Positions 4,978-20,774 of a DNA stretch of 41,142 bases are shown here, piece after piece. The translations under genes and the position numbers were made by a program. Position 1 is the stretch's first letter. Each line of letters opens with the position of its first letter. The DNA is taken from the sequence record PZ019083.1, one strand, 5' to 3'. The stretch comes from a phage. Below the pieces are notes generated by a model. That model was not told where the DNA came from and did not search any database. It worked only from the letters and a program-made list of their open reading frames with translations.

Positions 4978-5024
4978 TGACTTTTCACTGAAAATATGAT
5001 AAGCTCCACCTGAGCTTGTGAAGT

Positions 5025-5171: not shown

Positions 5172-5230
5172 ATGATAAGGACTAGCGCCCCGCTTTAAGG
5201 CGGGGCTTTACTTATCGAGAAAGGGGAAAC

Positions 5231-5726: not shown

Positions 5727-5805
5727 TTGCCTTGTATGTTGGAATAATTTATTCTTGACATGTAAATCCGGGTGGCCCGGGTTCCAACGTCCAGGGGACA
5801 TACTG

Positions 5806-6432
5806 ATGAGCGAAGAAGTGAAAGACGAAACTATCGAACAACAAGAGACTAAGACCACGTTTACCAAAGAGGAAGTTGACGCGCTGGTATCAGGTCTTAA
5901 AGCTAACAACGAGAAACTCTTGTCTGAAAAGAAAGCTGCTGCCGCTGCCGCTAAAGAAGCCGCAGATGCGAAGCTGAAAGCCGAACAGGAACGCGCAAAA
6001 CAGAACGGCGAACTTGAGGCATTCGAGAAAACGTTACGTAGTCAGTATGAGCCAGTACTAGCCGAGAAAGACGGTAAGATTAACAAAATGGCTGAGCGTA
6101 TCCTCGGCGCAGAACGTAAATCAGTTATCAGCCAGTTGTCTGGCATGTTGATTGATGAGAGCGCAGCGGATATCATCGCTATGATGGTCAAGACCGAATT
6201 CGACGGCGATGACGTTGTGACCAAGTTCACTGGTGCAGATGGTAACGTCATCACCACCGACGCAGAGCAATTTAAAAAGTATCTGCGTGAGCACAAAGCA
6301 TTCTCGCATCTGATTAAAGCAGATGCAGCAACCGGCGGCGGGGCTTCCGGTAACAAAAATTCTACTGGCGGGGCCGGTGGTACGGACGTAATCCAGCAAA
6401 AACTTAACGCCAAATACGGCAAACGAGGATAA
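5806..6432 (+). CDS. head scaffolding protein
   Basis: Acidic, K/E/A-rich coiled-coil protein immediately upstream of major capsid gene. Confidence 0.55.
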   Translation: MSEEVKDETIEQQETKTTFTKEEVDALVSGLKANNEKLLSEKKAAAAAAKEAADAKLKAEQERAKQNGELEAFEKTLRSQYEPVLAEKDGKINKMAERILGAERKSVISQLSGMLIDESAADIIAMMVKTEFDGDDVVTKFTGADGNVITTDAEQFKKYLREHKAFSHLIKADAATGGGASGNKNSTGGAGGTDVIQQKLNAKYGKRG

Positions 6433-6438
6433 CAGAAT

Positions 6439-7407: not shown

Positions 7408-7426
7408 CACGGTTGATGGCAGAAAC

Positions 7427-7449
7427 AAAGGGGCTTCGGCCCCTTTTTA
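7427..7449 (+). terminator. intrinsic terminator
   Basis: AAGGGGC-TTCG-GCCCCTT hairpin + T-run after capsid gene. Confidence 0.65.
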
Positions 7450-7464
7450 CTAGGAGAAATTAAA

Positions 7465-7632
7465 GTGGAAATTAAATACGTACCAATGCCAATCACCATC
7501 GAGCAGAAGCGCGAATATAACCGTCAGGGGTTCCGCGTGGTAGATGCGCGTTTCGCACCAGAAGGTGCTGTGGTAGAATCGACTAAAGAAGAGACGCCAC
7601 GCCGCCAGCGTCGGGCGAAATCAGAGGAATAA
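7465..7632 (+). CDS. small hypothetical protein (55 aa, GTG start)
   Basis: AGGAG RBS 6 nt upstream of GTG; not in ORF track because under 60 aa. Confidence 0.35.
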   Translation: MEIKYVPMPITIEQKREYNRQGFRVVDARFAPEGAVVESTKEETPRRQRRAKSEE

Positions 7633-7635
7633 TTT

Positions 7636-8148
7636 ATGCCGCTAATCGTGGAAGATGGGTCGATAGTACCTGATGCCGACAGTTACGTTAGTCTGGCTGA
7701 CGCCCGCGCGTTAGCGGCTAATTATGGTCTTGAGCTACCTGCAGACGATACTGCCGCGGAGGTGGCCCTGCGCAACGGTGCTACTTATGTTGGGCTTGCG
7801 GAGCCGCAGATGTGCGGTCGCCGTGTATCCGCCGAGCAGTCTCTGGCATACCCACGTACCGGAACAACACTAAACGGCTTCACCGTAGCTGATAATGTTA
7901 TTCCGTCGCAGTTAATCCGGGCGCAAGTAATCGCTGCTGTTACGTACGGCGTAGGTACGGATGTTCGGGCTAACTCTGATGGACGTTCCGTGCAGACCGA
8001 ACGTGTCGAGGGTGCGGTGACAGTGACCTACTTCAACAACGGCAACAGTGGCGCTACAACCGCCATCACCGCTGCGGACGACGCCTTACGCCCGTTACGG
8101 TGCGGCGGCCTCAATAATGGCTTCTCATTTAACGTGTACCGGGGTTAA
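7636..8148 (+). CDS. head-tail connector / adaptor protein
   Basis: 170 aa, position after capsid gene. Confidence 0.45.
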   Translation: MPLIVEDGSIVPDADSYVSLADARALAANYGLELPADDTAAEVALRNGATYVGLAEPQMCGRRVSAEQSLAYPRTGTTLNGFTVADNVIPSQLIRAQVIAAVTYGVGTDVRANSDGRSVQTERVEGAVTVTYFNNGNSGATTAITAADDALRPLRCGGLNNGFSFNVYRG

Positions 8149-8150
8149 AA

Positions 8151-8765
8151 ATGGCGAAGACTAAAACAGAGATGTTTACCCTTATCGGTGCGAACCTCCC
8201 CGATAACACCACCGGACTTATTACCCCAGCCGCATTGCGCGAGGTAATGACGCAGATGGCTGACTCGCCTATTTACGCCACTCCAGGCGTTAAAGAGGTT
8301 GAAGTTCTCCGTGCCGCGTCGACCGTAACACAAGCGCCCACCGCATTAGATACGGCATTGCAGTTAACTTTTGGCGCTGCGCAGGGTGGCGCATCTGACC
8401 CGGTAATGATTAATGCCGCGGGGCTGGTTACGTTTAACACCGCAGGTAACTACGCCGTTCGCATCAAGTTACAGGCGGGTCGCACGGGCGCGAGCGGTAC
8501 ATCTATCCTGTTGTCACGGATTCTTCTGAACGGTTCTCAGTACGGGTCTCCCGCAGCTACTAAACTGGTAAGCGCCGACGTAACGATTCCGATTGAGTCT
8601 CGCGTCGTTATCAATCCAACCGCGGGCCAGACGTTTGCCGTTCAGATTATGCGGGATAGTGCCGGAAGCAACTACGGCGGCGTATACCCGCAAGCGGCTA
8701 CCGTAACTGCATGGGGGACAGCGCCCTCCGCACTACTGGTTATCTCGAGACTGGAGGCCGCGTAA
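8151..8765 (+). CDS. hypothetical structural protein
   Basis: 204 aa Ala/Thr/Gly-rich ORF in neck region, tightly packed. Confidence 0.4.
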   Translation: MAKTKTEMFTLIGANLPDNTTGLITPAALREVMTQMADSPIYATPGVKEVEVLRAASTVTQAPTALDTALQLTFGAAQGGASDPVMINAAGLVTFNTAGNYAVRIKLQAGRTGASGTSILLSRILLNGSQYGSPAATKLVSADVTIPIESRVVINPTAGQTFAVQIMRDSAGSNYGGVYPQAATVTAWGTAPSALLVISRLEAA

Positions 8766-9124
8766 TGAGCACCGCTTTCAGTAAACGTATGCAAGGCGTG
8801 GGCACACGCCTGCTAACCAAATTCGGTAGCACGGTATCTCTTGTTCGCGCTGGCTCAAAAGTGTGGGATGAAGTTCTCGGTGAGTACGTCTGGTCTTCGG
8901 ATGAAGTGTTGCCGTTGAAAGCGGTCCCGGTTCCGGTAAACGTGGGGCTGGTGAACGGTACGACGATTCAGGCTGGCGACATGATTGTTAAAGCCGATTG
9001 CAGCGTCGTTCCGAAGATGGAAGACAAGGTACAATTCGGCGGCGAGCAATGGTCTGTCGTAGCTATCGAGAAGAAGATGGTTAACGATGATGTCGTGGCC
9101 TACTTTATTCAGGTGAGAAAATGA
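8765..9124 (+). CDS. head closure / head-tail joining protein
   Basis: ATG 8765 overlapping upstream TAA; 119 aa. Confidence 0.4.
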   Translation: MSTAFSKRMQGVGTRLLTKFGSTVSLVRAGSKVWDEVLGEYVWSSDEVLPLKAVPVPVNVGLVNGTTIQAGDMIVKADCSVVPKMEDKVQFGGEQWSVVAIEKKMVNDDVVAYFIQVRK

Positions 9125-9516
9125 GTTTCGCGCTTGATGTCTCTAAGTTCGTGGAAAAGGCGAAGAAGAACCCTGAGACGGTGATGCGTCAGGTGTCTAT
9201 TAAGTTGTTTTCCGCTATTATAAAGGCGAGTCCGGTAGATACAGGCCGATTTCGCATGAACTGGATGGCATCTGGTGGCATTCCTGCTTCCGGGATTACG
9301 GACGCTACGGATAAATCAGGAAACATAGCTATCGGAAACGCTGCAAGTTTCGTACTGAAAGCTGCAGACTGGCGCGAGTTCACGTTGACAAATAATCTGC
9401 CGTATGCCCAACGACTGGAGTATGGCTGGTCGCAACAGGCCCCCGCCGGGGTTGTCAGGACTAACGTGTCCCGCTTCCAGCAACTCATTAACGAAGAAGC
9501 CAACAAGGTGAAATGA
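9121..9516 (+). CDS. neck / tail completion protein (HK97 gp10-like position)
   Basis: ATGA overlap with upstream gene; 131 aa. Confidence 0.4.
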   Translation: MSFALDVSKFVEKAKKNPETVMRQVSIKLFSAIIKASPVDTGRFRMNWMASGGIPASGITDATDKSGNIAIGNAASFVLKAADWREFTLTNNLPYAQRLEYGWSQQAPAGVVRTNVSRFQQLINEEANKVK

Positions 9517-9929
9517 TGGGCTACTTTGAGGACTTAACAAAAGCGTTCGATGTGCCGCTGGTAGCCTTCGGAACCGCAAACGGCATCAAGGTCGCGCTCG
9601 AAAACATCGACGCGCCGACGTCGACTGATACGCCGTATCTGGCGAGTTACATGTTGCTGGCAGATACGGAACAGGCGGATTTGTTCTTCACGGAACAACG
9701 CTCTGGTATTTATCAGGTAGACATTAACTACGCATCGGTGAAAGGTAGCGCGCCAATCAATAAAATGGCAGACTTACTTAACACGGCGTTTAAAGCAGGT
9801 AAGTCATTTTCGCGTAACGACATCTGCGCCGAGGTTCAATCGGTTAGCCTGGGGCCGCTGATTGTAGAAAACGGATGGGCCAAACGACCATTGTCAATTA
9901 ACTTTATTGCATTCACCAAGAGGCTGTGA
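9513..9929 (+). CDS. tail terminator-like protein
   Basis: ATGA overlap; 138 aa immediately upstream of major tail gene. Confidence 0.35.
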   Translation: MMGYFEDLTKAFDVPLVAFGTANGIKVALENIDAPTSTDTPYLASYMLLADTEQADLFFTEQRSGIYQVDINYASVKGSAPINKMADLLNTAFKAGKSFSRNDICAEVQSVSLGPLIVENGWAKRPLSINFIAFTKRL

Positions 9930-9931
9930 AT

Positions 9932-11098
9932 ATGGCTACAACTCCTTTTAAGGGCGTTAATACCGCGCAATTCTATGTGGCGGAGACTACCCCGGGCGTA
10001 ACCCCGGACAACCCTGTCTGGTCGCCGCTGCGTAACACTGGCGGCGTTCCGGCCATTACCCGCGACACGCTGACCTCCAACGAGCTGGACGGCAGCCGTG
10101 AAACTACGTCCATCCGCACAGGTAACAAGCAGGTTAGTGGGGAGTACGCTATTGAGCTTAGCTCGAAAAGTCAGGACGACTGGTTAGCCGGGGCTTTAGG
10201 TTCTACGTGGCAATCCGGTGTTTCTCTGTCAGGGCTATCTATTACCGTCGCACCGGCTGGTAAGACGTTTACCCGTGCTGATGGCAGCTTTATTACCGAC
10301 GGCGTTCAAGTGGGCGACCTGATCGCGTTCACCGACTTAACCGGCGATAACGCCAAACCGTTTATCGTAACCGAGGTAAGTGCGACTGTTGTCACCGGTG
10401 CTGGTATCCAACATACTCTGACCACTGAGACCGTAACTACCGCCGCTAAGACAGGTGACAAACTAGAAACGGGAAGCCAGTGTAAGACGTTCTCTATTCT
10501 TACCTGGTACAAAGGTCAGTGTGGCGGGACTGACGCGTACACGCTGACCAAAGGCGTGGAAGTTTCTGGTTTTACCATCGAACAGGCCGTAAACGCGATG
10601 GTAACCGGTAGTTTCCCGTTCATCGGGCGCAGCCAGGAGATTCTCACCACGCCCCCGACAGGTTCTGATTTCTCCTCGGTTACGTTTGGCGATGAGCCGT
10701 TCTCCTCGGTTGACGTTTCTGTGTTCGACGGTTCTACCCCGTTGCGTTGCGATAGCCTGACTATCACCAACGACAACAGCGCATCCGCGCAGTTCGAACT
10801 CGGCAACACTAACGTAGCGTTTGTGGAGCGTAGCCGTGCGGCTAACACCTTCTCCATCTCCGGCAAGCTGTATGACATGGCTATGATTCAGAAGTTTATC
10901 AACGAGCAGCAGGTAGAGATTAACTCTATTCTGGCGGGGGTAAATGGGGCTATGTCTTTCAGTTTGAAACGCGCAGAACTCACGGCGGTTACACCAGAAA
11001 TATCTGGTCCGGAATCAATCACTCAGTCCATTGAAGGCCAGGCTACCGGCAACCAGTACCAGTCGTCCATTATTATCCAGCGTATCACCTACGCATAA
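9932..11098 (+). CDS. major tail protein
   Basis: AAGAGG RBS then ATG 9932; 388 aa; followed by strong terminator. Confidence 0.6.
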   Translation: MATTPFKGVNTAQFYVAETTPGVTPDNPVWSPLRNTGGVPAITRDTLTSNELDGSRETTSIRTGNKQVSGEYAIELSSKSQDDWLAGALGSTWQSGVSLSGLSITVAPAGKTFTRADGSFITDGVQVGDLIAFTDLTGDNAKPFIVTEVSATVVTGAGIQHTLTTETVTTAAKTGDKLETGSQCKTFSILTWYKGQCGGTDAYTLTKGVEVSGFTIEQAVNAMVTGSFPFIGRSQEILTTPPTGSDFSSVTFGDEPFSSVDVSVFDGSTPLRCDSLTITNDNSASAQFELGNTNVAFVERSRAANTFSISGKLYDMAMIQKFINEQQVEINSILAGVNGAMSFSLKRAELTAVTPEISGPESITQSIEGQATGNQYQSSIIIQRITYA

Positions 11099-11102
11099 AA
11101 CT

Positions 11103-11126
11103 AAGGCCCCGAAAGGGGCCTTTTTC
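11103..11126. terminator. bidirectional intrinsic terminator
   Basis: AAGGCCCC-GAAA-GGGGCCTT flanked by A-run and T-run, between convergent operons. Confidence 0.6.
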
Positions 11127-11357
11127 TTACTCATCAATGTTACTCCTGTAGTCCCGTAACTTTTCCAGACTTTCAATTGCTTCCGCTAAGTCTGTTCCTG
11201 TGTCCTTGTGCCCGCGAAGGCCCAAGCACAATAGCTTCTTCAATGCGTGTTGCAACGCAGGGTCACGGATGTCGAAAGCACGGAGAACATCGTAAACGTC
11301 TACTGTCATGGTGCTGCCGTGTGTATTTGTCATTGTGCGGTTGTATTTTGAAGTCAT
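11127..11357 (-). CDS. hypothetical protein, DUF3310-like
   Basis: 76 aa; motif ALQHALKKLLCLGLRGHKDTGTDLAEAIESL resembles DUF3310 phage proteins (from memory); ATGA coupling to upstream gene. Confidence 0.4.
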   Translation of the reverse strand: MTSKYNRTMTNTHGSTMTVDVYDVLRAFDIRDPALQHALKKLLCLGLRGHKDTGTDLAEAIESLEKLRDYRSNIDE

Positions 11358-12484
11358 CCCAGCATCTCCGGTGAAATAGTTAAACGTGCGACCTCGCCGT
11401 ATTCGGCGCTATAAGTAATTACATTTGCACTACGGCCCGACATCCAACCGCCTCTGGATGCGTAGGCGTCTTTGGCCGCTAAGGTGCGGTGTTGCTCAAC
11501 AATCATGTTACGGCTTTCTACAATCTTTTGGTGGTGCAGGTGGCCTACGTGGGCGTAGCTATAAACGCTCTCGCCGAACGCTTTGCGGAACTTGGCGATC
11601 ATAACCGGTTCAATAGCGTCGAATCGTGCTTTATGCCCGTGGTGAAAGAACAACGTCGTTTTGCCGTGTTGCACCATCTTGTAAACGTCCGGCGACGTGT
11701 CGACGATCACTCGGCTGTCTTTTGAGTATAAAGTCGTGAACATTTCCGCCAACCACACAGACCCTACAGGGTCGTGATTTCCTTGCACGATAAGCAAGCG
11801 AACATTTTTGTGCTTAACGAGCGCCATATCAACAACACGGCGGACCATACGAATCATGTAACGTACAAGTTTCTGGTAGCGCGTATCTGCATCCAACACA
11901 TGGCGCGACTCAGGCGTAACGGCGTCCAGGCTATCGAAGTGCGCGAAGTCGCCCAGCAGGTTAATAACTCCAGTTCCCGCGTCTGGTGCTTTCTGAAACG
12001 CGGCATCAAACCACCGAGAAAACAGGTCTTCAGCAATCTTCATATCCCAGTCGTCGCCGCTCTCGTCGGCCCAGGCCAGCATGCCGAGATGGAAATCAGA
12101 TACCGTGTAAAGATTGAGTAGCTTGTCATCACGTTTGGCTCGAGTCGCTTTAACAGGGACAACCGGCGTAATCTCTGACTTCATGCCTTCAATTACGGCT
12201 TTCATCAACTCGACCTGACGTTCGGCGTCAGTATCGGTCTTAACCCATTGCAGTTTAGTGTTGCCAAACTCGTCCACTAGTGACGACGTTCCTTTAATCT
12301 TGTAGCCGTCTGGCACAAGGTGACTAACGTCACGTCCGTGGCCTACACCTTTCTTAGCCAGCTTCGCTTTACGGATACGAATAACGCGGTCCGAGATGCC
12401 GTATTTACGGGCGATGTCTACATTCTTCATCCCGGCGTTCAATTCTTCCTGTAACTGTTCGTCGGTTATTTTCTTATGGGCCAT
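11354..12484 (-). CDS. HTH-containing calcineurin-like metallophosphoesterase
   Basis: Motifs SDFHLG, GDFAHFD, GNHD, HHGH, GHLHH; N-terminal HTH-like segment; start at ATG 12484 (MAHKK) with GAGGAAG RBS. Confidence 0.6.
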   Translation of the reverse strand: MAHKKITDEQLQEELNAGMKNVDIARKYGISDRVIRIRKAKLAKKGVGHGRDVSHLVPDGYKIKGTSSLVDEFGNTKLQWVKTDTDAERQVELMKAVIEGMKSEITPVVPVKATRAKRDDKLLNLYTVSDFHLGMLAWADESGDDWDMKIAEDLFSRWFDAAFQKAPDAGTGVINLLGDFAHFDSLDAVTPESRHVLDADTRYQKLVRYMIRMVRRVVDMALVKHKNVRLLIVQGNHDPVGSVWLAEMFTTLYSKDSRVIVDTSPDVYKMVQHGKTTLFFHHGHKARFDAIEPVMIAKFRKAFGESVYSYAHVGHLHHQKIVESRNMIVEQHRTLAAKDAYASRGGWMSGRSANVITYSAEYGEVARLTISPEMLG

Positions 12485-12522
12485 GCTTACTTCCTCGTGT
12501 TTAGGATTTGTCTTATAGTAGC

Positions 12523-12714
12523 CTACTTCTCTTTCACGTTCGAGTTGCAAGCCCAGATTAAAATAAATACCCACGGCAGCAGAACCCAGCCAAGAAACAG
12601 GTTAGCCGTGAATATCGCTAACTTCGCTTTATGGTTACGGAAGTACGCAACCAGGAAAGGCGCGAAATAAGCGAGAAGTGCAAACAGAATCAAGGAAACT
12701 GGTAAACTGGACAT
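12523..12714 (-). CDS. superinfection-immunity-like small membrane protein (Imm_superinfect family-like)
   Basis: Two TM helices; motif YFAPFLVAYFRNHKAKLAIFTANLFLGWVLLPWVFILIWA; AAGGGG RBS before ATG 12714. Confidence 0.5.
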   Translation of the reverse strand: MSSLPVSLILFALLAYFAPFLVAYFRNHKAKLAIFTANLFLGWVLLPWVFILIWACNSNVKEK

Positions 12715-12744
12715 TTTAAACCCCTTCATTGTTGGTGTAAGTGA

Positions 12745-12773
12745 ATAGTACCCTATTATATTGGGGTGTGCAA
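12745..12773 (-). promoter_or_regulatory. sigma70-type promoter TTGCAC-17-TACTAT (class A) driving the antisense accessory operon
   Basis: Near-identical to promoters at 34294 and 35511. Confidence 0.55.
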
Positions 12774-12881
12774 GTAATGTGATAGAATAATTTTGCGCCT
12801 AGTGTCGCACACGAAAAGCGGGTGGTTCCCGTCTGGCGCATTTACCGTTAACCTGTAACCTCTTAACCAAAGGATTAAAGA

Positions 12882-13301
12882 ATGAAACTTTCTGATTTTT
12901 ATTTCGAAGAGAAAGCACTGGTAGGCAAGAAGATGCCTATTCTCCTGCCAAATGGCGAAGACTCAGGCGAGTGGCTTAACGTTGTAAGCCCCGATGCGGA
13001 TGCCGCCGTTAAAGCTGGGCGTGCGTTCATTATCGCGTACCGTCGCGGGTTGGCGCGTTTCGAAGAACTGGAAAAAGCCGCCAAAGAATCAGGCGACTAT
13101 ACTGAATATAACCTGGCTATTAACGAACTGGCGGAAGACCTCAACCGGCAACTCGCGGCAGAAGTTGTAAACGGCTGGAGCTTTGACGACGAGCCTTTCT
13201 CTAAGGAAGCATTTAACAAATTGCTCGACCAGTTCAAAGGGCTTGGAACCCAGGTGGCGGCGTTCCATAACGCTGAACGTAAAGCATTACAGGAAAAGTA
13301 G
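12882..13301 (+). CDS. tail assembly chaperone (G-like)
   Basis: 139 aa ORF immediately upstream of tape measure gene, followed by a -1 frame ORF. Confidence 0.5.
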   Translation: MKLSDFYFEEKALVGKKMPILLPNGEDSGEWLNVVSPDADAAVKAGRAFIIAYRRGLARFEELEKAAKESGDYTEYNLAINELAEDLNRQLAAEVVNGWSFDDEPFSKEAFNKLLDQFKGLGTQVAAFHNAERKALQEK

Positions 13302-13666
13302 ACGCGCTGTACAGGTTCGCCACCTACGAGTTTGTGGATAAGCATAAAATCAGAGAGTTTGATTCTATAGCTGACGGTCACGAACAGGCGCTTATCGCGA
13401 TGGGTGTAATCGATAAGAAAAAACGTGCAGCGCGACGGGGTGGGCCAGAATGCCCGCCCCTTTTTATATCCACCTTTGAAACGTACTGTGGCATTAAGTT
13501 TACGCGACACGTGCGCGAGGACGCTGTAGTATTGTTTGCAAGAGAATCCGTTACGTGGCAAGACCTGAAATCCTATCTCGATGTTACGCAAAAACAGCTT
13601 AGCCTGTTCGAGATAGACATTATCATGGGCTTAGAAGCAATCTTTGAAGGTAGAAATCATGGCTGA
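13283..13666 (+). CDS. -1 frame extension of tail assembly chaperone (GT-like frameshift product C-terminal part)
   Basis: Frame -1 open from 13283; shifty A_AAG codon directly before TAG stop of upstream ORF; ends 8 nt inside tape measure gene. Confidence 0.4.
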   Translation, partial: SITGKVDALYRFATYEFVDKHKIREFDSIADGHEQALIAMGVIDKKKRAARRGGPECPPLFISTFETYCGIKFTRHVREDAVVLFARESVTWQDLKSYLDVTQKQLSLFEIDIIMGLEAIFEGRNHG

Positions 13667-15932
13667 TACCGCTAGCTTGATAGTACGAGTATCCTCGACC
13701 GGCGTCGATAAAACCACATCGCAACTGAACGGCCTCACCAAAGCGGCTGGCGCTGCCGCCGCTGCCGTTGTTAGTCTGGAAACCGCTAAGCAGGTGTTCA
13801 GCGCACTGGTGGACTCCCAGCGCAATTTCGATAAGCTAAACTCCGGCCTAATCACAATGACCGGAAGCGCAGAGAACGCGGCTAAGGCTTTCAGCGTTCT
13901 GCAACAGTTCGCAAAAGAGACCCCATACGGTCTCAATCAGGCGGTAGAGGGATTTACCAAGCTCGTTGCGCTCGGTCTGAACCCCAGCAAAGAGGCGCTG
14001 ATTTCCTACGGCAACACCGCGGCGGCTATGGGTAAAGACCTTAATCAAATGATTGAGGCGGTGGCGGACGCCAGTACCTTTGAGTTTGAGCGACTGAAAG
14101 AGTTTGGCATCAAGTCGTCACAGCAGGCGGATACAGTTTCTTTCACGTTCCGCGGTGTTACCACCACGGTTAAAAAGAACTCCGAAGAGATTCAGAAATA
14201 TCTGTTAAACATCGGCAACACCGATTTCGCCGGGGCGATGGAGACGCGCTCGAAGACATTAGATGGTCAGTTGTCGAGCCTCGCTGACTCCTTCGACGGT
14301 CTCGTTCTTGCCGTAGCGCAGTCGGGTTTTGGCGACGCCGTAGGTGAGCAAGCAGCGACAGCGGAAGATGCTATTACCGCACTCACCGACGCCATAGCGT
14401 CTAATGAGATAGCCGCCACGCTCCAGGATTGGGTGACGCTGTTCAACGAGTCGTTCAAGTTTATTTCTGATGCCATGAATGACCTGGCATTCTATACAGA
14501 GGACAAATCAACGGACATGTCCGACTCGCTGGGGGCTATCCCTGACGCTATCCGAGAGTGGTTGCCTGAGATCCAAAGAATAGCGAAGGATATGTATGTA
14601 GAGTTCCAGGCTATCGACATGCAAGCGGCGCTTCTGGCGCAGTCTATTAAGGCTGCCTTCACTCCAGGAGAGACTGCGGAGGGTACATACGCCGCGGGTC
14701 AGGCCGCTATTCAGTTCTTCAAAGACACCGAAAGGGCAAAAAACAAGGCCGAGGCGGACGGGATAACCCAACGCTCGAAGCAGCGTAAAAAAGAAATTGA
14801 GGAACAGCGCAAGCAGTACGACGAGCGTAAGAAGCAAGAAATTGACTTAGCCAGCCTTGTTAATAAAAAGGGTGGAACCGGAGGAACCGGAAACACCAAC
14901 GACAAAGACGCGAAAGCCGCCGCTAAGAAAGCGGAGCAATTGCGTAAACAGGCGCAAGATTATCTCGACACTCTGGCCCGTCAGAACAACGACGAGTTAA
15001 AGGCTATTGATGCGCAGGAACAGCAGAAACTGGCTAAGGCAAAAGAGTTCTACAGCCAGGGCGCGCTGTCACTGAAAGAATACGAGCAAGCAAAAACGGC
15101 TATTGTCCTCGAAGCAGGGCAAAAACGACAAGATGAACTGGATAAACGCCAGAAAGAAGCCCAGGAAAAACAGCAGAAAGGCGACGACTTCATGGCTCAG
15201 ATTATGGGCCAGAACGCTACTGAGCTTGAGCTTCTCGACATCCAGGAACAGCAGAAACTGGCGGTAGCCGATAAGTACCGTGAGCAGGGGCTTATTAACG
15301 AGAAGCAGTATCAGGCCGCGCTTAACGCCATCAACGAGCAATACGCAACCAAGCGTGCCGATGCAACGGCAACGGCCTTCGGTAACATGGCTTCAAACAT
15401 CGGGTCTGCGTTGGGTGAGGCTTCTGGCGCGTACAAGGCATTCGCTATCGTACAGGCCACCATAGCCACGTACACCGCAGCTATCGAGGCGTACAAGTCC
15501 ACGGCGGCTATCCCTGTAGTCGGCCCGTTCCTGGCCCCTGTAGCCGCTGCCGCTGCCGTTGGGGCAGGTATGGCGCAGGTTTCCGCTATAAGGTCCGCAC
15601 GTGAACAGGGCGGTCAATTATCCGCGGGGCAGGCTTCCACCATCGCAGAACGCGGTAAACCAGAAGTTATCATGCCTGCTGGTGCATCACGTGTGCGCAC
15701 CGCGCAGCAGATGAAGGAAATTATGGGGCAAAACGGGTCTTCTTCCGGCCCGTCTAATGTTACCATCGTAAACAACACGAGTTCTCAAATCGGCAATGTA
15801 TCCACAGAACAGGATGATGAGGGCCGTCTACGCATCATCATCGAAGAGCAAGTGGCGGCATCTTTGCAGAACAGCAACAGTAAGATTAGCAAGGCCCGCA
15901 AGGCCACAAGAAATGCGCCGGGGTTCAAATAA
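13659..15932 (+). CDS. tail tape measure protein
   Basis: Long Ala/Gln/Lys-rich coiled-coil protein, ATG 13659 with AAGGTAG RBS. Confidence 0.8.
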   Translation: MADTASLIVRVSSTGVDKTTSQLNGLTKAAGAAAAAVVSLETAKQVFSALVDSQRNFDKLNSGLITMTGSAENAAKAFSVLQQFAKETPYGLNQAVEGFTKLVALGLNPSKEALISYGNTAAAMGKDLNQMIEAVADASTFEFERLKEFGIKSSQQADTVSFTFRGVTTTVKKNSEEIQKYLLNIGNTDFAGAMETRSKTLDGQLSSLADSFDGLVLAVAQSGFGDAVGEQAATAEDAITALTDAIASNEIAATLQDWVTLFNESFKFISDAMNDLAFYTEDKSTDMSDSLGAIPDAIREWLPEIQRIAKDMYVEFQAIDMQAALLAQSIKAAFTPGETAEGTYAAGQAAIQFFKDTERAKNKAEADGITQRSKQRKKEIEEQRKQYDERKKQEIDLASLVNKKGGTGGTGNTNDKDAKAAAKKAEQLRKQAQDYLDTLARQNNDELKAIDAQEQQKLAKAKEFYSQGALSLKEYEQAKTAIVLEAGQKRQDELDKRQKEAQEKQQKGDDFMAQIMGQNATELELLDIQEQQKLAVADKYREQGLINEKQYQAALNAINEQYATKRADATATAFGNMASNIGSALGEASGAYKAFAIVQATIATYTAAIEAYKSTAAIPVVGPFLAPVAAAAAVGAGMAQVSAIRSAREQGGQLSAGQASTIAERGKPEVIMPAGASRVRTAQQMKEIMGQNGSSSGPSNVTIVNNTSSQIGNVSTEQDDEGRLRIIIEEQVAASLQNSNSKISKARKATRNAPGFK

Positions 15933-17332
15933 TGACTGACTTATATTTCCCACGTAGCCTTAAGCCTATCGTATCGAAAGGCTACTCAATGACCAGACGT
16001 AACAACGTCTGGAGCGTTGATTTAGCCGGTGGCGGGGTGCGTCAGGGCCGCGACACGTATTACGACGTGTTCCCAATAAGCGTAACCCTGATTACATCGG
16101 CGCTGGGGCGGCAGGCGTTTCTGTCGTTCCTCGAAAAAGTAGACGGTGGTGCGTCAAGTTTCTGGATGGCGCACGACTTCGGCATGGGTATTGAGGATTA
16201 CCAGGTAACAATCACGTCCACCATCGCTGAGTCCACCGAAGATGGCATTAACTGGACGATTACTTTCACGGCAACCGCCGAGAAATCGCCGTTCCAGGAC
16301 CTTGAGAACCAGTGCCTGATTAACAATCTTCCGGATTTGTACGGTTGTTACGGGGACTGTCTGGGTAGTTTCCTGAAAATATATGCGAACTACGAGACGA
16401 CGTTCCCGCGCATCTGGAGCAATGAAGGGCCTGCAGGATACCCGCCGATTAACCTTCTGGCGTCGACTCTTGATAGCCGCATTGTGTATGACGGGCCGCA
16501 GGTTTATTACATCAACCGAAACGGCAATCTTGTGCAGTCCGCCGCCGGTGAATGGCCACTTACGTTTATCGATGGCTCGGCAGTTGGGCGTGTGCCGCCG
16601 GAGGCATCAGTAATTAACAGATTCCTATATTCAAGCAATTTCTCTTCGTCAAACTGGAACAAAGGTTTGGTGAGTGTATCAGTATCTGAAACAGGTGTTT
16701 TAACAGCCGCGGGCACGTACGACGTAACTGCTACCGCCACAAGAGGTAACCACCTAATAAACCAGACTGTAGATGTTAGCGTTGGTGTTGGCGACATGGT
16801 TACTTTTAGTTTCTTCGCAAAAGCAAACGGATACAATTTCATACGGATGTACGTGCGAGAACTTCCTACAGTATTAGGCTCAGCAGTTGTTGATTTGCGG
16901 GATGGTAGCATTTATTCCGGCCCAGGCGGTACAGATGTAACCGACGTAGGCGGAGGGTGGTTCCGAATATCGGAGACGATTACCGCAACAGAAGATAAAA
17001 CAATGAGCATACGGATGGACGCATGGATATATTCAGACGGAGTTACCGGGTCATTTACGGGGGATGGCGTTTCAGGGGTTAAATTATCCGCGGCTACTGT
17101 AGAGGTAAACCAAAATACAACATCCCCGGTAATAACCGATGCCGTTGTTGTCACCCGCTCGACAGCGTCCGCAAAAGTAACCATGAATGGCGCGACAAGC
17201 ATTGACATTACCTATTCCGACGGCACTGTGGTAAACGTTCCGTCTGTAGATGGTTACGCCACCATCCCGCAGGCCGATTCTGCGTGGGGTAGTAAGTACA
17301 TCACCCGTATTGATTTTAATGTGGACGGTTAA
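15932..17332 (+). CDS. minor tail protein (distal tail / tip component)
   Basis: ATGA overlap with tape measure; 466 aa beta-rich. Confidence 0.5.
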   Translation: MTDLYFPRSLKPIVSKGYSMTRRNNVWSVDLAGGGVRQGRDTYYDVFPISVTLITSALGRQAFLSFLEKVDGGASSFWMAHDFGMGIEDYQVTITSTIAESTEDGINWTITFTATAEKSPFQDLENQCLINNLPDLYGCYGDCLGSFLKIYANYETTFPRIWSNEGPAGYPPINLLASTLDSRIVYDGPQVYYINRNGNLVQSAAGEWPLTFIDGSAVGRVPPEASVINRFLYSSNFSSSNWNKGLVSVSVSETGVLTAAGTYDVTATATRGNHLINQTVDVSVGVGDMVTFSFFAKANGYNFIRMYVRELPTVLGSAVVDLRDGSIYSGPGGTDVTDVGGGWFRISETITATEDKTMSIRMDAWIYSDGVTGSFTGDGVSGVKLSAATVEVNQNTTSPVITDAVVVTRSTASAKVTMNGATSIDITYSDGTVVNVPSVDGYATIPQADSAWGSKYITRIDFNVDG

Positions 17333-17335
17333 TTT

Positions 17336-17851
17336 ATGAGTCAGGAATCAGTAGAAGCCGCCTATCGCCGCAAGCTGGCCTCAAATCCAGACGGCGAGAT
17401 GGATTACATCACGTTGCAAATCAGCCACCCGTTGCTGTCGAAGACGTACTATCTTGTGCGCGGGTTGCAGGAACTTACGGCAACACTGGAAACCGGCGAA
17501 ACAATCACGTTCGAACCTACTCCGATGGAGGCGTCGGGGGCCGCTAACAACAGCGATATGGACCAGACGACGACGTTTACTCTACCGGATATCCTCAATC
17601 AACTGGATGATGAGATGGATAAAATCCCGATGAGTAATACCGAGTTGCCGAAATTCGTCTTCCGCCGTTACGTCAGTACCGACCTGTCTTATCCAGCTGA
17701 CGGCCCGGTCGTGTACGAGTTACAGGCCATCAACCAGGAGAAGGGCGAGTTCTCCGCAGATGTCGGTACACCTATGCTGAACCAACGAAGCACTGGTATA
17801 CTAATGACACCTAAAGAGATACCGTTATTACGCGGCCTGTTGACCACATGA
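17336..17851 (+). CDS. minor tail protein (L-like position)
   Basis: 171 aa between tip proteins. Confidence 0.4.
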   Translation: MSQESVEAAYRRKLASNPDGEMDYITLQISHPLLSKTYYLVRGLQELTATLETGETITFEPTPMEASGAANNSDMDQTTTFTLPDILNQLDDEMDKIPMSNTELPKFVFRRYVSTDLSYPADGPVVYELQAINQEKGEFSADVGTPMLNQRSTGILMTPKEIPLLRGLLTT

Positions 17852-18213
17852 ATATTAACGACTACACGGGTATACCTTACGATTTTCGCAAACGTAATTG
17901 CTGGCATCACGTGCGCATTGTCCGCGCGGATGCCGGGTTAGAAACCCCTGCGTTCGACGTTACAAGCCCAACAGCAATTAACGAAGCGTTTGACGAAGGC
18001 CGCCGTGACACGAAGGGGCTTACAAAAATTGATAAGCCTGAAAACTTCTGTGCGGTGCTTATGGGGTATCGCCGTGGTGGTCGTATCGTGTGGCACGCAG
18101 GAGTTTACTTTGACGGGATGGTGAGTCATTGCGAGCTTGCGTCCCGTCAGGTACGGCTTGACAGGCTGGCGGACCTCAGAGACACGTACACGGAGATTGA
18201 ATTTTGGCGATAA
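17848..18213 (+). CDS. tail assembly protein, NlpC/P60-like (K-like)
   Basis: Conserved Cys (NCWHH) and His (HAGVY) spaced as in NlpC/P60 folds. Confidence 0.4.
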   Translation: MNINDYTGIPYDFRKRNCWHHVRIVRADAGLETPAFDVTSPTAINEAFDEGRRDTKGLTKIDKPENFCAVLMGYRRGGRIVWHAGVYFDGMVSHCELASRQVRLDRLADLRDTYTEIEFWR

Positions 18214-20774
18214 TCCTGCGCTACACGCGAAACGCCGACGGCGCTTTCGACCGTACAAAACACGTCGGGATGCCGATGGAGTTTGTCGTTAACCGTATCC
18301 CTGACGGCGTGCCAGTGCGCGTCTACCTCGGTGAGATCGGCGATGATACAGATGTAACAGACGACTTCGAAGCGCTCAAAGACGAGGACGCCGTGTACCA
18401 CATTATCGAGAGTGCCGGCGGTGGTATCGGCGACGCTATCGGGAGTGTATTCAGCTTCATCCTTAAGCCAATTGCCAAACTGTTCGGGCTTAACACAGCA
18501 GCTAACGCTAATTATTCCGCTACCAACAACCAAGCTACGTCGCCCAATAACAGCCTCACTGACCGCTCAAACAAGCCGCGTCCTTATGAGCGTTCTTATG
18601 ATATCTGTGGGACAGTGCAGACTATCCCCAATGACCTGATGCAGACGTACAAGGTGTTTAACGCCGCTGGTGCGCTTATCGAATACGCGTACTATGACGC
18701 CGGTCGAGGGTATCTGCATATTGAGGAAGACGGTGTAACTGAGGCAGATACCCGAATCAGCGAGATAACTGGCTCGTCGGTGACAGTGTATTCTCCTTAC
18801 ACGTCGCCGAATAATACCAATTCCCCGCAATTGCGCATTGGCGACCCGATAGACCAGAAATTGTACGTTACATTTAAAAACGCCGATGTCGATGGTGCTG
18901 TTCTTCCCGCCCCTAATGACATCGCTATAGACGTAGCCTTGTACACGGTACAACGGCAAGGCGCTACAGGTATTGTAGTTGGCAATGACGCTGGTTTTGA
19001 CGAGATTCTTTCCGTCGGGGATCTGGCCTATTTTGACAATGTATACGCGGACACCACACCCTCTTATCAGGGGGATGAAGTTAACCTGGACGGCCACTAC
19101 ACGGTTCTTTCGGTGAGCGAAACCACACTTGTAGTCGATATAAGTCCAAACCAGTCTGTATGGAACCAGATAGGAACAACCCAATGGGAAATAGACGCCA
19201 ACGTAGGGAATCATCTTATAGGTCCAGCGGACACTTACGCTGCTTCCCTCTCTGAGTGGGCGTACATCACCCGCGGTGCTGTCGACCGTGTTGTAGCCAA
19301 TGTCGCTGCCAGCAACGGCCTGTATAAATACAACGGCGACTATAACCGCGCTTCAGTGACGGTGGAACTGCAATATCAGATGGTGGACGAGTTGAAACAA
19401 CCTGTAGGTGGTATATTTACAGTACAAGGAACAGTAACAGGCAGGAACACAGATTACACGGGGATTACTCTTTATGGAAGTTTACCAACTGCTTCCAGAT
19501 TCCGCGCCCGTATGCGTCGTGTTTCCGACACCGATAAAGATTTTGAAGGTACTGTTAGCGACGAGGTTACTTTCACTAATCTGTATGGGCAGTCACTTGA
19601 CACAACGCCCCACTACGGCAACCGTACTACCGTACACTGCGCTCGTAAACAAACGCCACGTGCCGCGGAGGTGTCCGAACCGGAACTACGTATGATTGCC
19701 ACCGAGATGTGCTACAAATACTTAGGTAACGGCGTATTCGATACGGTAATGACCCCTAATACGCAGGCAGTACAATCACTAATCCGCTTGGCTCGCGACC
19801 CCGCGGTGGGTAATCTGGAACTGTCAACGGCAAACATGGACAAGTTACTTGCTGTGCAGGAAGAGATTGAGTCCTATTTCGGGAGTGAATTAGCGGGTCA
19901 GTTCTGCTACACGTTCGACGACTACGACACCACGATGCAGGACATCGTTCAAACTATAGCTGAGGCCGTGTTCTGTACCGCGTACCGTAAAGGCGCGGAT
20001 ATTATGCTGCGATTCGACCGTCCGGTAGCTGGGCCTGAGATGGTGTTCACCCACCGCAGCAAAACTACCGGTACAGAGAAATGGACGCGCACATTCAACG
20101 ATTCAACAACTTACGATAGCCTGTCGTTCTCATACATCGACCCGGATATAAACGTACAGGAAACGATTTATATCCCGGAAGAACTCGGCGCAAACACCGA
20201 GGAGTACGAATCTAAGGGCGTACGTAACTATCAGCAGGCGTACTGGCTTGCGTGGCGTCGTTACCAACGCAATGCGTTAAGTAAAGTTGTTGTAGAGTTC
20301 GAAGCTACTGAAGAAGGTGTGCTCGCTACCCCCGGCGGCGTAATCAGCGTGGTTAAAGGCTCACGTATCGCCCCGCAGGATGGTTATGTTGTTGCCGTTA
20401 ATGGGCTTACGCTGACGCTATCTCAGCCTGTTACGTTTACTCCTGGCGACGACCACTCCATCATCCTCAAGAAGCGCGATGGTTCCGTACAGAGTATCTC
20501 TGTTATCAAAGGAAGCCATGACCGCGAGGTGGTTATGCTCTCCGCGCCACAGGAGGCAATTTACACGGGGAATAGCGCACTAAAAACTGAGTTTTCATTC
20601 GGCAACGAAGCAAGGCATAATGCTCAGAAGATAGTTGTTTCTTCAATCGACCCGGGCGACGACCGCACGGTCAAGATTACGGGATACAACTATGACGACG
20701 GATTCTATAAATACGACGGCGTCGCGCCATATGGCAGCGGTTTCTCCGACGGATTCAGCAATGGTTTTAATTAA
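18204..20774 (+). CDS. host specificity / central tail fibre protein (J-like)
   Basis: 856 aa at the end of the tail tip module. Confidence 0.55.
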   Translation: MAIILRYTRNADGAFDRTKHVGMPMEFVVNRIPDGVPVRVYLGEIGDDTDVTDDFEALKDEDAVYHIIESAGGGIGDAIGSVFSFILKPIAKLFGLNTAANANYSATNNQATSPNNSLTDRSNKPRPYERSYDICGTVQTIPNDLMQTYKVFNAAGALIEYAYYDAGRGYLHIEEDGVTEADTRISEITGSSVTVYSPYTSPNNTNSPQLRIGDPIDQKLYVTFKNADVDGAVLPAPNDIAIDVALYTVQRQGATGIVVGNDAGFDEILSVGDLAYFDNVYADTTPSYQGDEVNLDGHYTVLSVSETTLVVDISPNQSVWNQIGTTQWEIDANVGNHLIGPADTYAASLSEWAYITRGAVDRVVANVAASNGLYKYNGDYNRASVTVELQYQMVDELKQPVGGIFTVQGTVTGRNTDYTGITLYGSLPTASRFRARMRRVSDTDKDFEGTVSDEVTFTNLYGQSLDTTPHYGNRTTVHCARKQTPRAAEVSEPELRMIATEMCYKYLGNGVFDTVMTPNTQAVQSLIRLARDPAVGNLELSTANMDKLLAVQEEIESYFGSELAGQFCYTFDDYDTTMQDIVQTIAEAVFCTAYRKGADIMLRFDRPVAGPEMVFTHRSKTTGTEKWTRTFNDSTTYDSLSFSYIDPDINVQETIYIPEELGANTEEYESKGVRNYQQAYWLAWRRYQRNALSKVVVEFEATEEGVLATPGGVISVVKGSRIAPQDGYVVAVNGLTLTLSQPVTFTPGDDHSIILKKRDGSVQSISVIKGSHDREVVMLSAPQEAIYTGNSALKTEFSFGNEARHNAQKIVVSSIDPGDDRTVKITGYNYDDGFYKYDGVAPYGSGFSDGFSNGFN

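What the first reader, a model, noticed from the sequence alone, without database searches (positions are those of the whole stretch)
12882..13666. Likely programmed -1 ribosomal frameshift in tail assembly chaperone at A_AAG immediately before the stop codon
The ORF upstream of the tape measure gene ends …CAG GAA AAG TAG. The -1 frame is open from 13283 and continues for 128 codons to 13666. Lys-tRNA slippage from AAG to AAA while the stop codon occupies the A site would produce a fusion protein, as in lambda G/GT-type chaperones, although the heptamer is not the canonical X_XXY_YYZ.
Basis: partly seen in the sequence, partly recalled or inferred. Interest (0 to 1): 0.4.

Follow-up and report, generated by a model that had tools for sequence, protein, structure and literature searches.

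The report
Tail chaperone frameshift at stop-adjacent A_AAG
This is the ordinary two-in-one tail assembly chaperone gene of a K1G-like E. coli phage, where a small share of ribosomes slip back one base at A_AAG just before the stop codon to make a longer fusion protein; close relatives already have it annotated, but the slip signal (a four-base site plus the stop itself) is an unusual, strongly conserved form.

Summary
ORF G (12882-13301, 139 aa) ends CAG GAA AAG TAG. The -1 frame is open from 13283 to 13666 and its end overlaps the tape measure start (ATG 13659).

The window is a Kagunavirus, about 95% identical to phage K1G. G and the -1 ORF match the two halves of one 259-position PHROG chaperone profile. 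The identical fusion (…ALQEK|VDALY…) is already deposited for K1G (ADA82267.1, YP_009168804.1), by prediction only.

All 89 relatives examined (T part 37-99% identical) have A_AAG followed at once by TAG or TAA, never TGA. The preceding codon varies (GAA, GCA, GTA, GGA, TCA, AAA), so tandem heptamer slippage is not what is conserved. Variation periodicity switches from frame 0 to frame -1 exactly at the junction. No start codon is conserved before T codon 36, and no conserved downstream structure or SD-like stimulator exists.

A-site hexamer slippage cannot be excluded. No experiment exists for this family.

Side observations: a terminator-like hairpin inside T (13437-13460), an int-alpA-like RNA in the G leader, and unexplained synonymous constraint at 13304-13309.

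The parts
12870..12874 (+). Shine-Dalgarno (AAGGA) of the chaperone gene G, 7 nt before ATG 12882
   Evidence: Read from the sequence. Anti-SD duplex is -5.4 kcal/mol.
12882..13301 (+). Gene G: tail assembly chaperone, 139 aa, 15.6 kDa. This is the product of standard decoding.
   Evidence: Pfam Phage_TAC_4 at 21.9 bits (cut-off 21.1). PHROG 15027 positions 1-138 at E=2.7e-69.
13280..13282 (+). TAA in the -1 frame. It sets the 5' limit of the 19-nt window (13283-13301) in which a -1 shift can give an open reading frame.
   Evidence: In relatives L075 and L080 the equivalent stop lies one codon before AAA, which confines the shift to GCA_AAG.
13295..13298 (+). Slip site A_AAG (frame 0: GA[A AAG]; frame -1: AAA G). 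tRNA-Lys re-pairs from AAG to AAA.
   Evidence: It is the only Z_ZZN motif in the permitted window. It is invariant in 73 of 73 distinct sequences and present in 89 of 89 loci.
13299..13301 (+). G stop codon TAG, directly 3' of the slip codon. Proposed stimulator ('shifty stop').
   Evidence: The stop is always at this position: TAG in 51 and TAA in 22 of 73 distinct sequences, never TGA. TAG is only 7 of 51 stops in the window's ORFs.
13298..13666 (+). T segment, read in the -1 frame after the slip (GTA GAC GCG ... to TGA 13664-13666), 122 aa. The fusion G-T is join(12882..13298, 13298..13666), 261 aa, 29.6 kDa.
   Evidence: Pfam Phage_TAC_18 at 62.5 bits. PHROG 15027 positions 137-259 at E=8e-70. 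Variation periodicity is in frame -1 from the junction onward. The K1G orthologue is deposited as a fusion.
13304..13309 (+). GCGCTG (T codons 4-5, Ala-Leu), with almost invariant synonymous positions. Possible 3' context element of the signal; function unknown.
   Evidence: GCG in 74 of 75 sequences, and the Leu codon always ends in G (76 of 76). Other conserved Ala, Leu and Gly codons use synonyms freely. No pairing partner was found.
13659..15932 (+). Tape measure protein gene. Its ATG 13659 overlaps the end of T (ATGGCTGA).
   Evidence: PHROG 1538 at E=3.7e-185 and Pfam TMP_3. Anti-SD duplex is -5.0 kcal/mol.

Best explanation
Genes G and T of this K1G-like siphovirus form a lambda G/GT-type tail assembly chaperone pair expressed by programmed -1 ribosomal frameshifting.

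Most ribosomes read G to its TAG and release a 139-aa chaperone. A minority slip back one base on A_AAG (13295-13298). The single E. coli tRNA-Lys (anticodon UUU) leaves AAG and re-pairs with AAA. The ribosome then reads GTA GAC GCG... in the -1 frame to 13666 and makes a 261-aa G-T fusion (...ALQEK-VDALYRF...).

The most likely trigger is the stop codon immediately 3' of the slip codon. With peptidyl-tRNA-Lys in the P site and UAG waiting for RF1 in the A site, the pause lets the tRNA re-pair (a -1 'shifty stop').

By analogy with lambda, G and the G part of G-T coat the tape measure protein, and the T part recruits the tail tube protein.

Shown here: the ORF geometry, the homology, the invariance of the site, selection in the -1 frame from the junction, and the absence of an own start or other stimulators. 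Inferred: that slippage happens, its efficiency, P-site timing, and the protein functions.
For: 1. Geometry and family. G, then T in the -1 frame, then the tape measure gene. G and T hit the two halves of the 259-position PHROG 15027, and T is Pfam Phage_TAC_18.

2. Prior annotation. K1G RefSeq has a joined CDS. The exact fusion, 260 aa with the predicted junction, is deposited as ADA82267.1, YP_009168804.1 and D2XJ88.

3. Conservation. A_AAG plus an immediate stop is present in 10 of 10 GenBank loci, 79 of 79 IMG/VR loci and Hafnia TS33, although the T part is only 37-55% identical in most of them. AAAGTA is 100% invariant, and the next base is only G or A, which keeps the stop. The closely related pair L048 and L050 differ as TAA versus TAG.

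4. The preceding codon varies: GAA, GCA, GTA, GGA, TCA, AAA. P-site re-pairing of a second tRNA is therefore not conserved.

5. Mean entropy at codon positions 1, 2, 3. Upstream in frame 0: 1.17, 1.04, 1.51. Downstream in frame -1: 0.66, 0.58, 1.36. In the stretch before the GTG: 0.62, 0.78, 1.16.

6. No start codon is conserved before T codon 36, and GTG 13334 has a weak SD.

7. No conserved RNA structure: the alifold consensus is empty, with z about -0.3. No SD-like motif sits at a fixed distance. A_AAG alone occurs in frame 32 times in the window, but next to a stop only here.

8. Literature. A_AA.G is the best tetramer in E. coli but is near background without a stimulator (PMC4066793). 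A slow stop in the A site together with a re-pairable P-site tRNA defines the 'shifty stop' (PMC3082878). E. coli has one tRNA-Lys, and the lambda G:GT ratio is 30:1 (PMC5009743). The window encodes no tRNA.
Against: There is no experimental evidence for either product in this phage group.

The invariance of AAAGTAR is partly forced by dual coding: Lys plus stop in frame 0, Lys-Val in frame -1. The stop is where G ends in every relative, so its role as a stimulator rather than just a terminator cannot be separated by comparison alone.

Well-established shifty stops are +1 events. The early reported potato virus M case, a -1 shifty stop as far as I recall, is treated with caution in PMC5009743.

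NNA_AAG hexamer slippage of the A-site tRNA is documented (cdd, IS1222) and gives the same protein.

An ATG at T codon 36 is conserved in 72 of 76 sequences, so some independent initiation of a shorter T cannot be excluded.
Confidence: 0.8

Rival explanations
1. The same -1 frameshift and the same products, but by A-site slippage on an NNA_AAG hexamer. tRNA-Lys in the A site slips from AAG to AAA while the P-site tRNA (Glu, Ala, Ser or Val) does not re-pair, during or before translocation. The adjacent stop codon is merely the end of G and does not stimulate.
For: [quoted passage not shown] The distant relative Serratia Tlacuache has C_CGA_AAG that is not stop-adjacent. The base two before the tetramer is G in 71 of 73 sequences, which hints that the preceding codon matters.
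Against: Without a stimulator, A_AA.G is near background in E. coli (0.147% against 0.112%; PMC4066793), and no structure or SD is conserved here. The stop is kept at exactly +1 codon in every relative, switches between TAG and TAA, and is never lost. The variable third T codon begins only with G or A. In-frame A_AAG occurs 32 times elsewhere in the window.
Confidence: 0.25
2. T is an independent gene translated from its own start (GTG 13334, ATG 13400, or reinitiation after the G stop). No fusion protein is made.
For: Many GenBank records annotate T this way. An ATG at T codon 36 (window 13400) is present in 72 of 76 sequences, with a moderate mean anti-SD duplex of -3.7 kcal/mol.
Against: Annotated starts differ between records (CTG or TTG at +6, GTG at +33, ATG at +99). 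GTG at codon 14 occurs in only 14 of 76 sequences and has a weak SD (-1.8 kcal/mol). The 35 codons upstream of the ATG are conserved as protein, with third-position variation in the -1 frame starting at the junction. tblastn similarity reaches residues 1-5 of the -1 frame in relatives at 40-55% identity. The PHROG profile is continuous across the junction.
Confidence: 0.05
3. The frame change is made at the RNA level: RNA polymerase slips on the A run and produces mRNAs lacking one A.
For: Transcriptional slippage is used by some IS elements and other genes instead of ribosomal frameshifting (PMC5009743).
Against: The A run is only 4 nt in the window (GGAAAAG) and 3 nt in many relatives (GCAAAG, TCAAAG). 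From general knowledge, productive slippage needs much longer homopolymer runs. What is conserved is A_AAG in a fixed frame plus the stop, not run length.
Confidence: 0.02
4. Artefact: a sequencing error or recent mutation split a single G-T gene.
For: None beyond the general possibility.
Against: The same two-frame arrangement, with the same junction, is found in 89 independent genomes and contigs.
Confidence: 0.01

Closest known systems
Escherichia phage K1G ORF22A/ORF22B (ADA82267.1, YP_009168804.1/YP_009168805.1) and fKuEco01-type annotations
   Same: Orthologous locus, about 95% nucleotide identity. It has the identical junction sequence CAG GAA AAG TAG ACG CGC TG and the same predicted fusion junction ...ALQEK|VDALY....
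   Different: G is 138 aa in K1G and 139 aa here (one extra Asp codon at 13185-13190). The K1G annotation is a prediction. I found no paper describing or testing the site.
Phage lambda G/GT (Levin, Hendrix and Casjens 1993; Xu, Hendrix and Duda 2004, 2013, 2014, as cited in PMC5009743)
   Same: Two overlapping ORFs just upstream of the tape measure gene. A -1 shift near the end of G, ending on AAG read by tRNA-Lys, gives a fusion. Expected roles are G binding the tape measure protein and T recruiting the tube protein.
   Different: Lambda uses the canonical heptamer G_GGA_AAG, some distance from the G stop, with two-tRNA slippage. Here the heptamer is G_GAA_AAG, the first codon is not conserved, and the stop is directly adjacent. 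There is no detectable sequence similarity to lambda G or T; the Pfam families here are TAC_4 and TAC_18. Three reverse-strand genes separate the tube gene from G.
A_AAG tetramer and NNA_AAG hexamer -1 frameshifting in bacteria (B. subtilis cdd A_CGA_AAG, IS1222 G_CGA_AAG, synthetic constructs; PMC5009743, PMC4066793)
   Same: A single tRNA-Lys slips from AAG to AAA with no requirement for P-site re-pairing. A_AA.G is the most efficient tetramer in E. coli.
   Different: Those cases rely on an upstream SD and/or a downstream structure, or are low-level and incidental. Neither stimulator is conserved here, and the slip codon is the last sense codon.
'Shifty stop' frameshifting (prfB CUU_UGA, pheL and Listeria phage CCC_UGA, antizyme; Weiss et al. 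1987 as cited in PMC3082878)
   Same: A slowly decoded stop in the A site next to a P-site tRNA that can re-pair in an overlapping frame.
   Different: The established natural cases are +1. This would be a -1 version, using UAG or UAA (both read by RF1) rather than UGA.
Tail chaperone genes of Vibrio Queuovirinae phages pVco-14 and vB_VpaS_ALK (distant homologues)
   Same: The G part is about 30% identical, the T N-terminus is homologous (KVSQLYEWM), and T is in the -1 frame just before the tape measure gene.
   Different: They carry a canonical T_TTT_TTC heptamer separated from the stop by one sense codon (GCC or GGT), not a stop-adjacent A_AAG.

Membership tests
Phage tail assembly chaperone pair with conserved programmed frameshift (lambda G/GT type) | Two ORFs located between the major tail (tube) gene and the tape measure gene | tested here: met
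   G-T lies immediately 5' of the tape measure gene (13659-15932), and the tube gene (9926-11098, Pfam Phage_tube_2) is upstream. One deviation: three reverse-strand genes (11127-12729) lie between the tube gene and G.
Phage tail assembly chaperone pair with conserved programmed frameshift (lambda G/GT type) | The second ORF overlaps the end of the first in the -1 frame and lacks its own conserved start and SD | tested here: met
   There is a 19-nt overlap window. No start is conserved before T codon 36, and GTG 13334 has a weak SD. Protein-level selection begins at the junction.
Phage tail assembly chaperone pair with conserved programmed frameshift (lambda G/GT type) | A slippery sequence in the overlap, conserved among relatives | tested here: met
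   A_AAG is invariant in 89 of 89 loci. It is a tetramer, not the canonical heptamer.
Phage tail assembly chaperone pair with conserved programmed frameshift (lambda G/GT type) | Sequence membership in chaperone families | tested here: met
   Pfam Phage_TAC_4 at 21.9 bits (cut-off 21.1, marginal). Pfam Phage_TAC_18 at 62.5 bits (cut-off 27). PHROG 15027 at E about 1e-69 for both halves. There is no NCBIfam or PDB relative.
Phage tail assembly chaperone pair with conserved programmed frameshift (lambda G/GT type) | Both products are made at a fixed ratio and both are required for tail assembly | not testable with these tools
   No experimental data were found for Kagunavirus or Jerseyvirus.
Canonical tandem-slippage -1 PRF signal (X_XXY_YYZ plus stimulator) | A heptamer allowing re-pairing of both P- and A-site tRNAs | tested here: not met
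   The window has G_GAA_AAG. Relatives have G_GCA_AAG, G_TCA_AAG and G_GTA_AAG. Only L026 (G_GGA_AAG) and L087 (A_AAA_AAG) are canonical.
Canonical tandem-slippage -1 PRF signal (X_XXY_YYZ plus stimulator) | A downstream stem-loop or pseudoknot 5-9 nt away, or an SD-like sequence about 10 nt upstream | tested here: not met
   The fold z-score is -0.34. RNAalifold on 36 representatives gives an empty consensus, and SD-like motifs are absent or at variable distance. Rfam finds nothing there.
'Shifty stop' P-site frameshifting | A stop codon immediately 3' of a codon whose tRNA can re-pair in the new frame | tested here: met
   AAG is followed by TAG or TAA in all loci. Re-pairing of the sole E. 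coli tRNA-Lys from AAG to AAA follows from the literature (PMC5009743).
'Shifty stop' P-site frameshifting | Frameshift efficiency depends on the stop codon and on release factor activity | not testable with these tools
   This needs reporter assays with stop-to-sense mutants and altered RF1 levels.
Rfam int-alpA RNA (RF02996), for the leader element noticed in passing | A score at or above the family's gathering threshold | tested here: not met
   31.5 bits against 35.8 in the window, and 28-34.2 bits in six relatives at the same position. The match covers the full model length and the structure is kept. It is int-alpA-like and cannot be filed as a member.
Intrinsic (Rho-independent) terminator, for the hairpin inside T noticed in passing | A GC-rich stem-loop followed by a U run, with termination activity | tested here: inconclusive
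   The pattern is met: 9-bp stem, 8 GC pairs, T5, and it is the top-ranked site in window 1-20000. Covariation is suggestive but the +3 slid control is as high. It is absent in two lineages. Termination activity was not tested.

The most novel reading that the evidence does not exclude
The Guernseyvirinae chaperone genes may be a natural, conserved -1 'shifty stop'. Its only stimulators would be an RF1-read stop codon (UAG or UAA, never UGA) directly after A_AAG, and perhaps the short constrained 3' context GCGYUG. The G:G-T ratio would then be set by, and respond to, RF1 termination kinetics rather than by an RNA structure.

A more speculative extension concerns the T region, which is ribosome-free on most transcripts. 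It carries a terminator-like hairpin (13437-13460) that could lower transcription into the tape measure gene. That hairpin could be melted only by frameshifted ribosomes, which would couple G-T synthesis to read-through.
Probability: 0.3. Interest if true: 0.55.

Novelty: new member of a known kind. Interest (0 to 1): 0.3.

Why it matters
For annotation, G-T should be called as a joined CDS: join(12882..13298, 13298..13666). Many GenBank records of Kagunavirus and Jerseyvirus phages, several of them therapy candidates, instead give T an arbitrary start (CTG, TTG, GTG or ATG).

For recoding biology, about 90 diverged sequences keep only A_AAG plus an immediate UAR stop, with no structure or SD. 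That makes the family a clean natural test bed for two questions: whether a stop codon alone can drive useful levels of -1 slippage in E. coli, and whether RF1 activity tunes a virion assembly ratio. Beyond that, this is an expected feature of a siphovirus tail module.

Tried and rejected
- **Downstream stimulatory structure.** A single-sequence fold of 13299-13400 gave z=-0.34. RNAalifold over six windows from -20 to +110 on 36 representatives gave an empty consensus. Rejected.
- **Upstream SD-like stimulator.** Present at about -11 only in the Jersey group, absent or at other distances elsewhere. Rejected as a conserved element.
- **Tandem slippage on G_GAA_AAG.** The first codon is not conserved. 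Rejected as the conserved mechanism.
- **Own start for T.** No start is conserved before codon 36. Rejected as the main route.
- **Transcriptional slippage.** The A run is only 3-4 nt. Rejected.
- **Rfam.** No frameshift element and no hit at gathering level in the window.
- **PDB sequence search and NCBIfam on the fusion.** Nothing informative.
- **Literature on Kagunavirus, Jerseyvirus or K1G frameshifting.** No description found. The 95.5-kDa 'tail assembly chaperone' in the Ro145clw paper is a different ORF.
- **Xu et al. 2004.** It is not held in the library, so I could not check its table of slip sites.
- **Not attempted.** Structure prediction of G or T (not needed for the verdict) and the search for homologous proteins (cost not justified).

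Full report
**1. Observation**

- ORF G runs from ATG 12882 to TAG 13299-13301. It encodes 139 aa and ends CAG GAA AAG TAG.
- The -1 frame has a TAA at 13280-13282. It is then open from 13283 to TGA 13664-13666, which is 127 sense codons.
- That ORF ends inside the start of the next gene (ATG 13659, ATGGCTGA overlap). The next gene is the tape measure protein (PHROG 1538, E=3.7e-185).
- G has an SD (AAGGA, 12870-12874). GTG 13334 does not: its anti-SD duplex is -1.8 kcal/mol, against -5.4 for G and -5.0 for the tape measure gene.

**2. What the locus is**

- The window is a Kagunavirus, a K1G-like virulent siphovirus of E. coli in the Guernseyvirinae. Its best matches are JSSK01 and K1G, at about 95% identity over 12700-13800.
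- G is a marginal Pfam Phage_TAC_4 hit. The -1 ORF is a clear Phage_TAC_18 hit.
- The two ORFs match positions 1-138 and 137-259 of one PHROG profile (15027, 'tail assembly chaperone', 259 positions). That profile must therefore have been built from fused proteins.
- RefSeq K1G carries ORF22A plus a two-piece joined CDS, ORF22B.
- I assembled the 260-aa fusion for K1G with the junction ...ALQEK|VDALY.... That exact sequence is in NCBI and UniProt as ADA82267.1, YP_009168804.1 and D2XJ88, and also in fKuEco01-type phages.
- The frameshift is therefore already annotated for a 95%-identical relative. It is a prediction only: I found no paper that describes or tests it.
- Many other records annotate T as a separate gene with differing starts: CTG or TTG at +6, GTG at +33, ATG at +99.

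**3. Comparative anatomy of the junction**

I examined 10 GenBank loci, 79 IMG/VR loci retrieved with an alignment of the T part and Hafnia phage TS33. The T part is only 37-55% identical to the window in most of them.

- Every one has A_AAG followed immediately by a stop, with T in the -1 frame.
- Among 73 distinct sequences, AAAGTA is 100% invariant. The next base is G in 51 and A in 22, giving TAG or TAA and never TGA.
- The T codon that begins at that base encodes D, E, K, A, N, T, I or V. It varies, but it always starts with a purine, which keeps the stop.
- The closely related contigs L048 and L050 differ as TAA versus TAG.
- The codon before AAG is GAA, GCA, GTA, GGA, TCA or AAA. Re-pairing of a second (P-site) tRNA, as in X_XXY_YYZ sites, is therefore not conserved.
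- In L075 and L080 a -1-frame stop lies one codon before AAA, which confines the shift to GCA_AAG.
- In the window the permitted interval is 13283-13301, and A_AAG is the only Z_ZZN motif in it.

**4. Is T translated from the junction?**

Mean column entropy by codon position switches phase at the slip site.
- Upstream, the most variable position is frame-0 position 3 (1.17, 1.04, 1.51).
- From the base after the stop, it is frame -1 position 3 (0.66, 0.58, 1.36).
- This also holds for the 33 nt before the window's GTG (0.62, 0.78, 1.16).

Other evidence points the same way.
- The first 40 T residues align without gaps in 36 distinct variants, with the pattern KV.AL..[FY]A.[WY].[FY].
- No start codon is conserved in the T frame before codon 36. 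GTG at codon 14 exists in only 14 of 76 sequences.
- This rules out an own start as the main route. It does not exclude some extra initiation at the conserved ATG of codon 36.

**5. Stimulators**

- There is no conserved downstream structure. The window fold has z=-0.34. RNAalifold on 36 representatives returns an empty consensus for every window tried, and mean z is -0.34.
- SD-like motifs are absent or lie at variable distances.
- Rfam has nothing at the site.
- According to Sharma et al. [quoted passage not shown]
- In the window's own ORFs, in-frame A_AAG occurs 32 times, but next to a stop only at the end of G.
- TAG is a minority stop in the window (7 of 51 ORFs) but the majority in this gene family.
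- The only conserved candidate stimulator is therefore the stop itself. This fits the definition of a 'shifty stop': a slowly decoded stop in the A site beside a P-site tRNA with good re-pairing potential (PMC3082878).
- E. coli has a single tRNA-Lys for AAA and AAG (PMC5009743), and the window encodes no tRNA.

**6. Mechanism and its limits**

Peptidyl-tRNA-Lys on AAG slips to AAA while UAG awaits RF1, and decoding then resumes at GUA. This gives G (15.6 kDa) and G-T (261 aa, 29.6 kDa).
- The main rival is A-site slippage on an NNA_AAG hexamer without P-site re-pairing, which is documented for cdd and IS1222 (PMC5009743). It yields the same protein and cannot be excluded from sequence.
- The near-invariant G two bases before the tetramer (71 of 73) could fit that rival.
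- Part of the invariance of AAAGTAR is forced by dual coding.
- Natural shifty stops that are well established are +1. The early potato virus M report, a -1 shifty stop as far as I recall, is treated with caution.
- The functional roles are inferred from lambda: G coats the tape measure protein, T recruits the tube protein, and the G:GT ratio is about 30:1.

**7. Phylogenetic extent**

The G part finds 514 phage records.
- Within the Guernseyvirinae-like group the site is constant.
- Vibrio Queuovirinae phages have about 30% identity in G and a homologous T N-terminus (KVSQLYEWM). They use a canonical T_TTT_TTC heptamer separated from the stop by one sense codon.
- Serratia Tlacuache has C_CGA_AAG away from the stop.
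- The tetramer-plus-stop signal is therefore a lineage-specific variant within a family that elsewhere uses standard sites.

**8. Unexplained detail at the site**

- T codons 4-5 (13304-13309, GCGCTG) lie beyond the G stop, yet their synonymous positions are almost fixed. GCG occurs in 74 of 75 sequences, and the Leu codon ends in G in 76 of 76.
- Other conserved Ala, Leu, Gly, Ile, His and Phe codons in T use synonyms freely.
- No pairing partner was found. It may be 3' context for termination or slippage.

**9. Noticed in passing**

- **Terminator-like hairpin inside T.** The strongest terminator-like site in window 1-20000 lies inside T: GGGGTGGGC-CAGAAT-GCCCGCCCC followed by TTTTT, at 13437-13465.
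  - A hairpin plus T-run recurs there in many divergent relatives. Outer stem pairs are maintained through non-synonymous changes on both sides (RG..PL, EK..FI, EE..SL), and Jersey-type phages have a different hairpin at the same place.
  - Pair counts are suggestive: 73.4% of cells are paired against 66.6% in shuffles, and the covariation score is 0.189 against 0.108 (0 of 500 shuffles). One slid control scores as high, and two lineages lack the element.
  - Most ribosomes leave at the G stop, so this stretch is largely untranslated and the hairpin could form. Termination activity is untested.
- **int-alpA-like RNA in the G leader.** An int-alpA-like structured RNA (Rfam RF02996) lies in the G leader at 12792-12856. 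It scores 31.5 bits against a gathering score of 35.8. It recurs at the same position in six relatives at 28-34 bits.

**10. Verdict**

- The feature is an expected tail chaperone frameshift, already annotated in K1G. Its signal type, a stop-adjacent A_AAG with no other conserved stimulator, is unusual and apparently undescribed in the literature I could search.
- Interest is modest: 0.3.

Noticed in passing
window 13437-13470 (+), inside the T ORF; equivalents in L001, L006, L012-L028, L048-L052, L068-L076; a different hairpin in L009, L010, L083, L089: A strong intrinsic-terminator-like hairpin (9-bp stem, 8 GC pairs, loop 6, then TTTTT) lies in the coding sequence for 'GGPECPPLFI'. It is the top-ranked such site in window 1-20000. 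It recurs in many divergent relatives, with outer stem pairs kept through non-synonymous changes on both sides. It is absent in the MA12/VIPECOTH07 group and the L055/L060 group. Most ribosomes stop at 13301, so this region is mostly untranslated. It might act as a partial terminator between the chaperone and tape measure genes.
   Followed up: partly
window 12792-12856 (+), 26 nt upstream of G ATG 12882; also L004 311-375, L027 416-479, L001 1593-1657, L048 320-386, L007 305-369, L028 390-436: A sub-threshold but full-length match to Rfam int-alpA RNA (RF02996): 31.5 bits against a gathering score of 35.8, E=4.4e-5 on 201 nt. It lies in the leader of the chaperone gene and is found at the same position in six relatives (28-34.2 bits). 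Some records annotate a small reverse-strand 'hypothetical protein' over it, for example Bas74_0024.
   Followed up: partly
window 13304-13309 (+): GCGCTG (T codons 4-5) has nearly invariant synonymous positions across 76 distinct sequences, although it lies beyond the overlap with G. Control codons vary freely. No RNA pairing partner was found.
   Followed up: partly
window 11103-12729: A reverse-strand module sits between the tail tube gene and the chaperone gene. It holds a 76-aa ORF (11127-11357), a 406-aa metallophosphoesterase or 'DNA repair exonuclease' (11354-12574; PHROG 704, weak Pfam Metallophos hits), and a 68-aa superinfection immunity protein (12523-12729; Pfam Imm_superinfect). 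A bidirectional terminator-like hairpin at 11103-11122 follows the tube gene. This interrupts the usual order of tube, then chaperone, then tape measure.
   Followed up: partly
L002, L003, L004-L010 (GenBank records PQ799475, PQ850627, PQ417132, NC_031021, MW082583, PQ474795, KC460990, NC_021777, MZ274225): Most deposited relatives annotate T as a separate gene with inconsistent start codons (CTG or TTG 6 nt after the stop, GTG at +33, ATG at +99) instead of a joined frameshifted CDS. This includes RefSeq records for MA12 and Jersey.
   Followed up: yes
window 13185-13190: G has a GAC GAC (Asp-Asp) where K1G and most relatives have a single GAC, giving 139 aa instead of 138. The nearest relatives JSSK01 and BCH953P1 also give a 139-codon match.
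   Followed up: no
L011 (PP107912.1, Klebsiella phage vB_kpnM_D1, 'UNVERIFIED_ORG'): The T-part tblastn match is split into two pieces at 88% identity. This suggests an indel or sequencing error inside T in that unannotated record.
   Followed up: no
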